Shown here piece after piece: positions 29,755 to 32,669 of a DNA stretch of 64,000 nt (position 1 is its first letter; each line of letters begins with the position of its first letter). The DNA is from Catajapyx aquilonaris. Taxonomy: Eukaryota. The notes beneath the pieces are model-generated. The model made no database searches, was not told the DNA's origin, and saw nothing but the letters and a program-made list of their open reading frames with translations. Made by a program: the position numbers and the translations under genes. The stretch lies in contig KZ538245.1 in the NCBI GenBank assembly GCA_000934665.2, positions 1 through 64,000 on the forward strand. The letters are read 5' to 3'.

Positions 29755-29989
29755 CCTCCGTGACGTCACGCGTTCATCTGGCAACGTGCGCTAGTCCCCG
29801 CCCCCTCTTTTTCATCTATCTGGCAACCCTTGCGCAATCTGCACAACATGGCGGCGTCCATCGGAATGTTCTGAAATAATAATTTATCCTCTCTCTGGAT
29901 TTCTTCGTCGTTTCTCCGCCGTTCCAACTTCTTGACCTGGCCGCATCTGGACGGAAACGGGCTTGACCTTTGACCCTGCACATATTTAG
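29755..29989 (+). promoter_or_regulatory. Housekeeping-type promoter and non-coding first exon, inferred for NDUFA8
   Basis: TGACGTCA (29761), GC box ccccgccc, YY1-type aacatggcggc (about 29845) and a strong donor ag|GTGAGT at 29990. Confidence 0.6.
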
Positions 29990-30551
29990 GTGAGTGCCCT
30001 TCACACCGTATTAATCCCCTGCCATCAATTTGGTGCAGAAAACCATCAAGGTTAAATCATGATTATCCAACTTAGTGTAGACTAGTTATTAAAAGTGTGC
30101 GAAATTATTTGAAATTAAGTGTGAATATGACCCTGTGGAATGTTGGGTACGTAGGTGTAACGCTACGGGCAATCCCTTGAAGAGCATTACATCAAAGTTT
30201 ACTGTACAGTAGCTCCTATTTATTATTATGTACGGTCACCATCAAAAAATTGTCATAAATGTCTTTAATAGAAAACTAGCGACGTCGATTGCGATCGTCA
30301 CAATGTGCACCTATCTGTACTGTACATAGCGATTTGTAATCATAGCTCAGCATGTATTGTTTCTTTAAATATTCATAAGCGTCCAGATAATTTCATATGA
30401 AAATCATGGGATTGAAATGAAAGGTTTGCATGGTTGTTCGACCTCGCTTTTAATACCAGTAGGCACCGTCAAGAGCGTGGATTTTTTTTTTGAAGACGAT
30501 CCGAATTTAGGTCAGGTGTGAAAATAACGGTTTGCGTCTCAGGTCTCTTGA

Positions 30552-32669
30552 TTATTTCCCCTTCCGCGACCTCAGGTTCTTCTTGGTGTTCTGGTCCACT
30601 TCCGGCAGCTCGCTCACGTCCTCCTCAGATCCAGTCTTCTGCTCCTTGGCCTTCTTCTTGTTGGCTGACCTCTTGCTGGACTTCCCTGCTCCACCTTTGT
30701 GTACCGCCAGTTCCGCCATCCTCTCCCTCCTCTTGCGGAGGTGGAAGGTCAGGAAGTTCCACATGAGCCAAGCCTGGAGAAGGCAGACGCCGACCAGGGA
30801 GTTGATCCGCACGAACTGGGTGTTGAAGTTGCCCCTTGCGGCGTCCCATCCGCTGCTTGACATCGGAAGTCCGTACCAGAAGGTCAGGACAGACAGAATA
30901 ATTGAGGCCAGACGGACCAGGATGAACACCACGTTGCTGCTTAGGAACACTATCGAGAGACGAAGTTATTGACATTTGCTCCGACGTTCGGCGAACATGA
31001 CACTGACCTTTGCTGGCAGCCTGCTGGCGACCTGAGAAGTGTAGGAGCCTCGCAGCATGGAAGAGCGACTCGGATATGTAATGCAGAACCAACAGGAAGG
31101 TCGCAACTCTGGTGAAGCTGCAACAAACATAACGTCAGGCGTGCTAAACATTCGTAAGAAACCGAACACTCACTTGAGCATATAGGCAACCGTGATGAAC
31201 GCAAGGTAGAGTACGGCCAGCTGAATCCTCGGCACCCACTCTTCACGCTTCACCTTCTGGAAGTACAGCTCGGGGAAGCAGTGAAGCCAGTAGGACAGCT
31301 GGGTTATGACGAAGAACTTGGTCATGAAGGTCAGATCCGAATGGGGGTAGCCATCCCATAGCGACGGAAGGTTCAGCAGAAGATTCTCCCTGTCGGATAG
31401 ATGTTAATGTCACATTGTTCACCACCTTCATTTGATTATCAGCTTACCGGAAGATAATGTTTGCTCCCCACAGTGCGGACACGACGTAAAAGGCCAGGAG
31501 CTGTCCGGACTCGTTGAACTTCGAGTGCTTCACTTTGGATAGGTGTAGCTTGCGGTTCACCTTCTGTAAAGGGAATGTATGAGCGGCGTCCACACTGGAA
31601 AGTATGTGTACTTACGTCCAGCACATATTCCTGCAGTATAGCATGCATCACGATGGATATGAGGAAGTAGAAGAAGACGGCGCAGAGATCCTTCCAACCG
31701 TAGGTGTACAGAGTTGGTTCTGGTTCAATCTCAGGGTCGTACGGAGCATCGTTGGCAGTGGCGTTGTGGTGAAGCGCGATGAAAACTGATGCTATCGGAG
31801 ACGTCAACTGCAAATGTATTAATGATTGCTATTTATTTTACAGCCATGGTGATTACAAACAACATGTTCCTCCCGCCGGACGAGGAGCTGACCGTCCCGG
31901 AGATAAACGTGGAGACCCCTTCTCTCCGGGCGGCCTCGTTCCATCTGGGCAAGTACTGCGAGTCGCAGAGCAACGAGTTCATGCTCTGCAGGGACGAGTT
32001 AAAAGATCCCCGCAGCTGTCTGAACGAAGGGAAAGCCGTGACCGCCTGCGGGCTTGAGTTCTTCCAGAAGGTTAAGCAATCATGCAGGCCCGAATTCGAC
32101 GCATACGCTACATGCATTGACAAATCAAGCTGCGAACTGGAGATCAAGCATTGCCGCAAGACCCAAGCCGCATTCGACGGCTGCATGAAGGAAAAGTTCG
32201 GTATGGACCGCCCACACTTTGGATACTTCTGCCGAGCCAGGGTAAGCATATGGGCGGCGTCCGTAACGAGCGCGACTAATCGAACCGTTTCAGGTTCACC
32301 ATACGACCAGGCCCAAACCGGAGCCTCCGAAGAAGACGGTGTACGAGGACGCAACTCCAGGTCTGCCCGAGGACTACCCGAAGCCACCTGCACGCTACGG
32401 CAGCCGGTTCTACTTCCTGAATTAAAATGAGTCTAAAGTATGGCGAGTACGTAGTTTTGTGAATAGGAAGCTAGTGGGCGAATAAATGTTGGTTACACGC
32501 AACTTGCCCCGGATTATTTAAGTACGTAGAGCGTACCCACCTGGAACATCAACCCGATGACGAAGACCATCGCGACGCATGACACGATGTCAGCGTGGTT
32601 CTGGATGACAAACTCATGGCTTAGTAAAGGTGGCGTCTTGGTGGTGGTCCTTCGTCCTCTGAACCCCAT
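30552..32669 (-). CDS. TRAM1: Translocating chain-associated membrane protein 1; exon 1 32541-32669, intron 1 31808-32540, further exons down to 30552
   Basis: [99 protein letters not shown]. Confidence 0.95.
31846..32425 (+). CDS. NDUFA8: NADH dehydrogenase 1 alpha subcomplex subunit 8; exons 31846-32241 and 32294-32425
   Basis: [49 protein letters not shown] with twin CX9C motifs; C-terminus RPKP...[17 protein letters not shown] at 32481. Confidence 0.95.

What the first reader, a model, noticed from the sequence alone, without database searches (positions are those of the whole stretch)
29755..32669. TRAM1 and NDUFA8 appear mutually interleaved on opposite strands
Seen: the whole NDUFA8 CDS and its AATAAA (31846-32486) lie inside TRAM1 intron 1 (31808-32540). 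Only 38 bp separate TRAM1 exon 2 from the NDUFA8 ATG, and that ATG is preceded by an acceptor (ttattttacag|ccATG), not a promoter. The best candidate + strand promoter and donor lie at 29755-29995, beyond the TRAM1 3' end. Inference: NDUFA8 intron 1 (29990-31843) contains TRAM1 exons 2 to end, while TRAM1 intron 1 contains the NDUFA8 coding exons. Two housekeeping genes would then be transcribed convergently through each other.
Basis: partly seen in the sequence, partly recalled or inferred. Interest (0 to 1): 0.8.

Follow-up and report, generated by a model that had tools for sequence, protein, structure and literature searches.

The report
Two housekeeping genes threaded through each other
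In this arthropod-like genome the complex I subunit gene NDUFA8 and the ER translocon gene TRAM1 lie on opposite strands with each gene's coding exons inside the other's first intron; spliced RNA-derived contigs confirm this rare but already known kind of gene overlap.

Summary

**Evidence from run X1.** Two assembled contigs match the window with no differences.
- One joins 29829-29989 to 31844-32241 to 32294-32498. Both joints are GT..AG on the + strand, and the first skips 1854 bases. This is the predicted 29989/31844 junction of NDUFA8.
- The other joins six TRAM1 exons on the - strand, from 32766 down to about 30600. It skips 31808-32540, which holds the whole NDUFA8 coding region.

**Resulting arrangement.** NDUFA8 intron 1 holds TRAM1 exons 2-6, and TRAM1 intron 1 holds NDUFA8 exons 2-3. 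The two transcription units converge and overlap by at least 1.9 kb.

**Gene identities.**
- NDUFA8: PDB E 1.6e-53, and the model is colinear with a 175-aa orthologue.
- TRAM1: TLC domain, 64% identity over residues 1-383 to a named orthologue.

**Conservation.** 0 of 80 NDUFA8 loci from metagenome contigs carry TRAM1 nearby. None of those loci is a close relative.

**Still open.** The transcription starts, the TRAM1 3' end, minor isoforms and any regulatory consequence were not shown.

**Verdict.** Interleaved genes are a known class in metazoan annotation, so this is a tidy new example and not a new kind of system.

The parts
29755..29828 (+). Putative NDUFA8 promoter region. It holds TGACGTCA at 29761-29768 and two exact copies of ATCTGGCAAC at 29776-29785 and 29818-29827.
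   Evidence: It lies directly upstream of the first base covered by the NDUFA8 contig (29829). TGACGTCA occurs 7 times in the window against 1.0 expected. Promoter function is inferred, not shown.
29829..29989 (+). NDUFA8 exon 1, non-coding, at least 161 nt. It carries a short upstream ORF of 8 codons with its ATG at 29848. The donor is tag|gtgagt.
   Evidence: record 1, letters 1-159 (cut +2). The true 5' end is unknown, because contigs cannot show a start.
29990..31843 (+). NDUFA8 intron 1 (1854 nt, GT..AG). It contains TRAM1 exons 2-6 on the other strand.
   Evidence: table 5: skips 1854, GT..AG (cut +2), side 159.
31844..32241 (+). NDUFA8 exon 2, with the ATG at 31846. It encodes residues 1-132, which include four Cx9C motifs.
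   Evidence: PDB match to NDUFA8 chains at E 1.6e-53. Orthologues at 67% identity.
32242..32293 (+). NDUFA8 intron 2 (52 nt, GT..AG).
   Evidence: table 5: skips 52 (cut +1).
32294..32498 (+). NDUFA8 exon 3. The stop is TAA at 32423-32425 and AATAAA is at 32481-32486. The contig ends at 32498, 42 bases before the TRAM1 exon 1 donor.
32541..32766 (-). TRAM1 exon 1: 5' UTR, then the ATG at 32669-32667 and 43 codons.
   Evidence: record 2, letters 75-300. Translation. tblastn with four TRAM1 orthologues gives 67-74% identity.
31808..32540 (-). TRAM1 intron 1 (733 nt). It contains NDUFA8 exons 2 and 3 on the other strand.
   Evidence: table 5: skips 733, CT..AC, side 192.
31616..31807 (-). TRAM1 exon 2.
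31448..31563 (-). TRAM1 exon 3.
   Evidence: joints 31563/31616, and 31388/31447 with cut +1..
31174..31389 (-). TRAM1 exon 4, part of the TLC domain.
   Evidence: Pfam PF03798 at E 6.9e-10. Named TRAM1 orthologues.
31008..31117 (-). TRAM1 exon 5.
30195..30949 (-). TRAM1 exon 6. The coding part runs down to the stop at 30554-30552. The predicted 3' UTR has poly(A) signals ATTAAA at 30454-30449 and 30269-30264, and AATAAA at 30224-30219.
   Evidence: The contig covers 30949 down to about 30600 only. The 3' end near 30195 is a prediction, not shown by RNA.

Best explanation
NDUFA8 (+ strand) and TRAM1 (- strand) are two intact, expressed, convergently transcribed genes that are interleaved.

NDUFA8 is transcribed from a promoter left of 29829, which lies beyond the 3' end of TRAM1. 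Its 161-nt or longer non-coding first exon is spliced across 1854 bases to an acceptor 2 nt before its ATG. That intron holds all TRAM1 exons except the first.

TRAM1 is transcribed from right of 32766. Its first intron (733 bases) holds the whole NDUFA8 coding region and its poly(A) signal.

Shown:
- The exon-intron structures and the mutual containment.
- The presence of both spliced forms in one run.

Inferred:
- The two pre-mRNAs are complementary over about 1.9-2.3 kb, while the mature mRNAs share no exon sequence.
- The two 3' splice sites stand back to back, 32 bases apart. The branch-site and pyrimidine region of each intron must therefore overlap the other gene's splice region or exon.
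- Each gene's termination zone runs into the other gene's promoter. Polymerases on the two strands must therefore meet head-on, and some mutual transcriptional interference is expected.
For::
- Record 1 (765 letters, 0 other letters, 0 gaps) lies on 29829-29987, 31842-32240 and 32293-32498. Its joints read GT..AG after cuts of +2 and +1.
- Record 2 (1240 letters, 0 other letters) lies on six - strand pieces with five CT..AC joints. One of these is 31807/32541, which skips 733 bases.
- There were no loose ends and no alternative joints.

Gene models and identities:
- both joined reading frames are open (175 and 386 aa).
- the models are colinear with full-length orthologues. NDUFA8 aligns 1-174 of 175 at 68%. 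TRAM1 aligns 1-383 at 64%.
- 23 PDB sequences match, nearly all named NDUFA8 or its PGIV/NUPM equivalents, best E 1.6e-53.
- TLC domain, and orthologues named TRAM1.

TRAM1 3' end:
- all canonical - strand poly(A) signals after the TRAM1 stop (30449, 30264, 30219) lie to the right of 29989.
Against: - Run X1 is not on record as RNA. Its RNA origin is inferred from the intron-less joints.
- Only one run from one study holds the locus, and it may come from the same project as the assembly.
- Contigs cannot show the transcription start, the strand or the level. They also drop rare isoforms, so a proximal NDUFA8 start inside TRAM1 cannot be excluded as a minor form.
- The TRAM1 contig does not reach the stop codon or the 3' UTR. 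Whether the TRAM1 3' UTR stops short of NDUFA8 exon 1 is therefore predicted only.
- No independent DNA read evidence for the assembly across the 36-base and 42-base spacers was available.
- Nothing measured here bears on interference or dsRNA.
Confidence: 0.9

Rival explanations
1. Simple nesting. NDUFA8 is mainly transcribed from a start inside TRAM1 exon 2 or intron 1, and the distal exon at 29829-29989 is only a minor alternative first exon.
For: Contigs drop rare or competing variants and cannot show starts (text). Nesting within an intron is by far the commoner arrangement (passages read in PMC2330155).
Against: - The only NDUFA8 contig carries the distal exon.
- The ATG is 2 nt after a strong acceptor, ttattttacag.
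- Only 38 bases separate the ATG from TRAM1 exon 2, which leaves no room for a separate promoter outside TRAM1 coding sequence.
Confidence: 0.07
2. Artefact. Either the genome assembly misplaces one gene, or the NDUFA8 contig is a chimeric assembly of two unrelated transcripts.
For: There is an assembly gap at 32854-32928. The TRAM1 contig itself carries one odd 'goes back' joint, 32766 to 30600, so this contig set is not free of artefacts.
Against: - The joint falls exactly on a GT..AG pair with consensus flanks.
- It joins a CDS-less exon to an acceptor 2 nt before the ATG, and has 159 or more letters on each side.
- All seven splice joints of both genes agree with the assembled order, with 0 differences.
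- A misassembly would need breakpoints inside spacers of 36 and 42 bases.
Confidence: 0.02
3. The upstream exon is a spliced-leader or shared leader exon that is added to many mRNAs, not an exon specific to NDUFA8.
For: The acceptor lies immediately before the ATG, as at trans-spliced genes (recalled, not tested).
Against: - The exon is at least 161 nt, far longer than spliced leaders (recalled).
- It lies 1.85 kb upstream on the same strand, with a canonical donor.
- A leader shared by many mRNAs would be expected to break the contig at the joint (inference from how assemblers treat shared sequence). The contig is continuous there.
Confidence: 0.01

Closest known systems
Interleaved (convergent, partially overlapping) protein-coding gene pairs, as described in metazoan and especially Drosophila genome annotation
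   Same: The genes lie on opposite strands. Exons of each gene sit in an intron of the other, and no coding sequence is shared. A passage read in PMC2291194 calls nested and interleaved genes 'fairly common in metazoan genomes'. In the scheme of PMC2330155 (passages read) this pair is a partial convergent antiparallel overlap.
   Different: The containment here is reciprocal and nearly complete. All coding exons of NDUFA8 and five of the six TRAM1 exons are involved. The spacers are only 36 and 42 bases, inside a 733-base intron. I found no report of this particular pair: 5 papers hold both gene names, 4 were listed, and none concerns gene arrangement judging by title and abstract start. The Drosophila annotation paper that I recall as defining 'interleaved' was not held.
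Nested antiparallel genes, where a gene lies wholly within an intron of a host gene
   Same: The NDUFA8 coding exons and poly(A) signal lie wholly within TRAM1 intron 1 on the opposite strand.
   Different: The NDUFA8 transcription unit is not contained in TRAM1. Its first exon lies beyond the TRAM1 3' end, so the pair fails the definition of nested given in PMC2330155.
NDUFA8 / PGIV subunit of mitochondrial complex I
   Same: The model is 175 aa with four Cx9C motifs (C38/C48, C58/C68, C80/C90, C103/C113). It matches solved complex I chains at E 1.6e-53.
   Different: Nothing unusual in the protein. The gene lacks the introns near codons 43 and 102 that appear in many of the 80 metagenome loci.
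TRAM1 (translocating chain-associated membrane protein 1)
   Same: It has a TLC domain and is 64% identical over residues 1-383 to a protein named TRAM1-like.
   Different: Nothing unusual in the protein. A 76-residue piece found no PDB match at E <= 0.01.

Membership tests
Interleaved antiparallel gene pair | The two genes lie on opposite strands. | tested here: met
   The joints read GT..AG on + for NDUFA8 and CT..AC on + for TRAM1. The reading frames agree.
Interleaved antiparallel gene pair | At least one exon of each gene lies inside an intron of the other. | tested here: met
   A contig joins 29989|31844 across TRAM1 exons 2-6. Another contig joins 31807|32541 across NDUFA8 exons 2-3.
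Interleaved antiparallel gene pair | Neither transcription unit is wholly contained in the other. | tested here: met
   NDUFA8 exon 1 (29829-29989) lies left of the TRAM1 stop (30552) and of all predicted TRAM1 poly(A) signals. TRAM1 exon 1 (32541-32766) lies right of the NDUFA8 contig end at 32498. The TRAM1 3' end itself is predicted only.
Interleaved antiparallel gene pair | There is no exon-exon overlap, so the mature mRNAs are not complementary. | tested here: inconclusive
   The exons seen in contigs do not overlap. The TRAM1 3' UTR was not covered, so its extent is predicted from poly(A) signals only.
NDUFA8 (complex I subunit) | Two CHCH domains, that is four Cx9C motifs. | tested here: met
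   The cysteine pairs 38/48, 58/68, 80/90 and 103/113 are each spaced by 9 residues. They are invariant or nearly so in alignment A1. The Pfam CHCH and CX9C hits are below the curated cut-off: 21.0 and 21.4 bits against 27.2 and 26.4.
NDUFA8 (complex I subunit) | Full-length similarity to subunits seen in solved complex I structures. | tested here: met
   Best match is chain 8esw_A8 at E 1.6e-53 over residues 1-132 of both. The model aligns 1-174 to a 175-aa orthologue at 68%.
TRAM1 | TLC domain. | tested here: met
   PF03798 at E 6.9e-10, 39.6 bits against a cut-off of 24.6, for exon 4. The last exon gives a weaker E 0.0083.
TRAM1 | Full-length colinearity with proteins named TRAM1. | tested here: met
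   64% identity over 1-383 against 1-390 of a 399-aa protein named TRAM1-like 1.
TRAM1 | Association with the Sec61 translocon. | not testable with these tools
   Biochemical property, known for the family only from recall.

The most novel reading that the evidence does not exclude
The reciprocal threading is a maintained arrangement and not an accident of genome compaction. Each gene terminates into the other's promoter, and the two 3' splice sites sit back to back within 32 bases. Transcription or splicing of one gene would then set the output of the other, coupling an ER translocon component to a respiratory-chain subunit. The 2-kb complementary pre-mRNAs might also feed a nuclear dsRNA or endo-siRNA pathway.
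Probability: 0.08. Interest if true: 0.55.

Novelty: new member of a known kind. Interest (0 to 1): 0.33.

Why it matters
- **Annotation.** The locus is a clean, transcript-supported example of two essential-looking genes whose coding exons each sit in the other's first intron, with spacers of only 36 and 42 bases. Markov-type gene predictors cannot model such structures (passage in PMC2291194). Loci of this kind are therefore easily mis-annotated, for example as NDUFA8 without its 5' exon or as a fused model.
- **Experiment.** If the species is tractable, the locus is a compact natural test bed for three questions: head-on polymerase encounters, overlapping splice signals on opposite strands, and whether nuclear sense-antisense pre-mRNA pairing has any consequence.
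- **Scope.** It does not change what is known about either protein.

Tried and rejected
- **RNA runs.** The look-up of sequencing runs listed no RNA holder. It returned one run of unrecorded kind.
- **Uncovered parts.** The parts 29600-29817 and 30036-30580 had no contig cover. I draw no conclusion from this.
- **Own genome.** No whole genome is held for this window, so paralogues and other interleaved pairs could not be sought.
- **Earlier findings.** Four look-ups gave nothing relevant.
- **Conservation test.**
  - An alignment of 28 NDUFA8 sequences retrieved 80 NDUFA8 loci from metagenome contigs. This was the best 80 of 116 confirmed.
  - tblastn with the TRAM1 model found 0 of 80 at E <= 1e-3 and 0 of 80 at E <= 5.
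  - Of the 80 loci, 34 have at least 500 bases on both sides, 20 have at least 1 kb and 9 have at least 3 kb. In 30 of them NDUFA8 is split into more than one HSP, so they look genomic.
  - As a positive control, four distant TRAM1 proteins each find the window's exons.
  - No locus is closer than about 62% identity (one short 53-residue piece reaches 70%), and the organisms are unknown. This shows only that the tight arrangement is not general. It says nothing about close relatives.
- **PDB.** A search with a 76-residue TRAM1 piece found nothing.
- **Pfam.** TRAM1 exons 1 and 2 gave no hit.
- **Promoter motif.** ATGGCGGC as a promoter mark was rejected as weak. It has 5 matches against 1.4 expected, and 2 of 100 shuffles reach 5. 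Two of the five sites lie in a repeated palindromic element.
- **Literature.** The Drosophila annotation paper I recall for 'interleaved genes' is not held. Searches gave only general papers. The search was swamped by an ill-chosen term.

Full report
**1. What is in the sequence**

Reading 29000-33500 and translating by coordinates gives two complete gene models.

NDUFA8, + strand:
- The reading frame starts at ATG 31846 and runs to 32241.
- It is interrupted by a 52-base GT..AG intron (32242-32293) and ends at TAA 32423-32425. The product is 175 aa.
- The only AATAAA after the stop is at 32481-32486.

TRAM1, - strand:
- The six coding exons are 32669-32541, 31807-31616, 31563-31448, 31389-31174, 31117-31008 and 30949-30552.
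- They give an open frame of 386 aa with canonical splice sites.

Spacing:
- TRAM1 intron 1 is 31808-32540 (733 bases).
- The NDUFA8 ATG lies 38 bases from TRAM1 exon 2.
- The NDUFA8 poly(A) signal ends 54 bases before the TRAM1 exon 1 donor.
- The ATG is preceded by ttattttacag|cc.
- At 29989/29990 there is a consensus donor, tag|gtgagt.

**2. Gene identities**

NDUFA8:
- Residues 1-132 match 23 distinct PDB sequences. Nearly all are named NDUFA8 or its PGIV/NUPM equivalents, with best E 1.6e-53 over the whole 132 residues.
- 51 database proteins match, mostly insect NDUFA8, at up to 67% identity.
- The four Cx9C pairs are present and are invariant or nearly so in a 28-sequence alignment.
- The Pfam CHCH and CX9C hits fall below the curated cut-offs.

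TRAM1:
- The exons carry the TLC domain (PF03798, E 6.9e-10).
- Exon 4 finds 76 longer proteins, and the named ones are TRAM1 or TRAM1-like.

Local blastp of the full models shows colinearity:
- NDUFA8 aligns 1-174 of a 175-aa orthologue at 68%.
- TRAM1 aligns 1-383 against 1-390 of a 399-aa orthologue at 64%.

Both genes therefore look intact. The best relatives are insects and other arthropods at 60-70% identity. The organism is thus arthropod-like, with no close relative in the databases searched.

**3. Transcript evidence**

One public run (coded X1) holds 54% of the sampled words of 29700-32750. Its library kind is not on record. Laying its contigs on 29600-32853 gave two records, both without a single differing letter.

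Record 1 (765 letters):
- It lies on the + strand at 29829-29987, 31842-32240 and 32293-32498.
- After the stated cuts of +2 and +1, the joints are 29989|31844 (skips 1854, GT..AG) and 32241|32294 (skips 52, GT..AG).

Record 2 (1240 letters):
- It lies on the - strand at 32766-32541, 31807-31616, 31563-31447, 31388-31174, 31117-31008 and 30949-30644.
- It has five CT..AC joints, including 31807|32541, which skips 733 bases.

No loose ends, alternative joints or differences were listed. Two further pieces were not shown by the tool.

Seven intron-less joints fall exactly on canonical splice sites of the appropriate strand. I therefore take the run to be derived from RNA. That is an inference, since the record does not say so.

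**4. What follows**

- NDUFA8 intron 1 (29990-31843) contains TRAM1 exons 2-6.
- TRAM1 intron 1 contains NDUFA8 exons 2-3.

By span, this is a convergent partial overlap in the scheme of PMC2330155 (passages read). It is not a nested pair, because the first exon of NDUFA8 lies outside TRAM1.

The overlap of the two transcription units is at least 30600-32498 (1.9 kb), as seen in contigs. It would be about 2.3 kb if TRAM1 ends after the - strand AATAAA at 30224-30219. Two ATTAAA signals, at 30454-30449 and 30269-30264, are alternatives. All three lie right of 29989. The mature mRNAs are therefore predicted to share no sequence, but the TRAM1 3' UTR was not covered by a contig.

**5. How it most likely works**

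Shown: the structure, and the presence of both spliced mRNAs.

Inferred:
- **(a) NDUFA8 promoter.** NDUFA8 uses a promoter just left of 29829. That stretch holds TGACGTCA (29761-29768) and two exact ATCTGGCAAC copies (29776, 29818). TGACGTCA occurs 7 times in the window against 1.0 expected, and another copy lies at 33064 near the presumed TRAM1/next-gene promoter. This is suggestive only.
- **(b) Back-to-back splice sites.** The two 3' splice sites (AG at 31842-31843 on +, and at 31809-31808 on -) stand back to back with 32 bases between them. Each intron's branch-site and pyrimidine region must therefore lie in this shared spacer or in the other gene's exon.
- **(c) Termination into promoters.** Polymerases that finish NDUFA8 run into TRAM1 exon 1 and its promoter. 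Polymerases that finish TRAM1 run into the NDUFA8 promoter some 200-450 bases further on. Head-on encounters and some mutual interference are therefore expected, and the two pre-mRNAs are complementary over about 2 kb.
- **(d) Upstream ORF.** The NDUFA8 5' exon carries an 8-codon upstream ORF (ATG 29848), provided the start lies upstream of it.

None of (a) to (d) was measured.

**6. Rivals**

- **Proximal start.** A mainly proximal NDUFA8 start (simple nesting) is not excluded as a minor isoform, because contigs drop rare forms. However, the only contig carries the distal exon, and there is no room for a promoter outside TRAM1 coding sequence.
- **Artefact.** An assembly or contig artefact is unlikely, because all seven joints fit the assembled order at consensus sites. 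I had no independent DNA reads, and the TRAM1 contig does carry one odd 'goes back' joint.
- **Spliced leader.** This does not fit the 161-nt or longer exon, which lies in cis with a canonical donor.

**7. Conservation**

No eukaryotic genome collection was available. As a substitute, 80 NDUFA8-encoding loci were fetched from metagenome contigs. This was the best 80 of 116 confirmed.
- None carries a TRAM1 match: 0 of 80 at E <= 1e-3 and 0 of 80 at E <= 5.
- 34 of the 80 have at least 500 bases on both sides, 20 have at least 1 kb and 9 have at least 3 kb.
- Distant TRAM1 proteins readily detect the window's own exons.

The tight arrangement is therefore not general among the eukaryotes sampled. 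However, none of them is a close relative (at most about 62% identity over long pieces), and their identity is unknown.

Many of these loci split NDUFA8 near codons 43 and 102, where the window's gene is continuous. Many also end a match near codon 134, close to the window's intron at 132/133. This is what one expects of an old gene that lost 5' introns, and not of a retrocopy.

**8. Comparison with what is known, and verdict**

[quoted passage not shown] I recall, but could not read, that the Drosophila release 3 annotation listed interleaved genes as a class.

I found no report of an NDUFA8/TRAM1 arrangement. In one search, 5 papers hold both names, 4 were listed, and none concerns gene order judging by title and abstract start.

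It is a new member of a known kind. It is notable for its compactness and reciprocity but not surprising in principle. Interest 0.33.

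Noticed in passing
window 32766 and 30600 (table 5): The TRAM1 contig carries a 'goes back 2167' joint. Its first 74 letters lie in the last exon (about 30673-30600), directly before the 5' UTR from 32766. The contig's two ends overlap by about 30 letters, as in a circular path of an assembly graph. The break points are not splice sites. It is probably a chimeric-read or assembly artefact, perhaps marking the TRAM1 start near 32766. A circular or concatenated RNA is not excluded.
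   Followed up: no
window 29098-29600: A minisatellite of about 26 copies of a 19-base A+T-rich unit (TTTTTATTTTCATGAACAA, 73% matches) ends about 150 bases upstream of the putative NDUFA8 promoter motifs.
   Followed up: partly
window 32950-33201 and 34881-40600: An Ars2/SRRT-like gene appears to lie on the + strand, head to head with TRAM1. A candidate non-coding exon ends at a gtgag donor near 33201. An ORF starts with an ATG near 34881. PF12066 (SERRATE/Ars2 N-terminal) matches 38215-38508 at E 7.6e-06, just below the cut-off. The presumed shared promoter region holds an assembly gap at 32854-32928.
   Followed up: partly
window 11150-11400 and 62990-63260: Two copies of a repeated element with long internal inverted symmetry (MITE-like). 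Each contains the ATGGCGGC motif on both arms.
   Followed up: no
window 43607-43927, - strand: An ORF with a globin domain (PF00042, E 1.6e-08).
   Followed up: no
window 29848-29874: An upstream ORF of 8 codons lies in the NDUFA8 5' exon. Its ATG is part of an ATGGCGGC motif that also occurs twice at 33007-33042 near the TRAM1/next-gene promoter.
   Followed up: partly
window 31846-32241 compared with loci L045-L080: NDUFA8 here has no introns near codons 43 and 102, where many metagenome-derived loci are split. Its one coding intron (132/133) is close to where many loci end their match, near codon 134.
   Followed up: partly
window 18000-29700: No convincing long coding ORF lies on either strand for more than 10 kb left of the NDUFA8 promoter (ORFs of 70 aa or more, read by eye only). 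The distal promoter therefore does not obviously serve a divergent neighbour.
   Followed up: no
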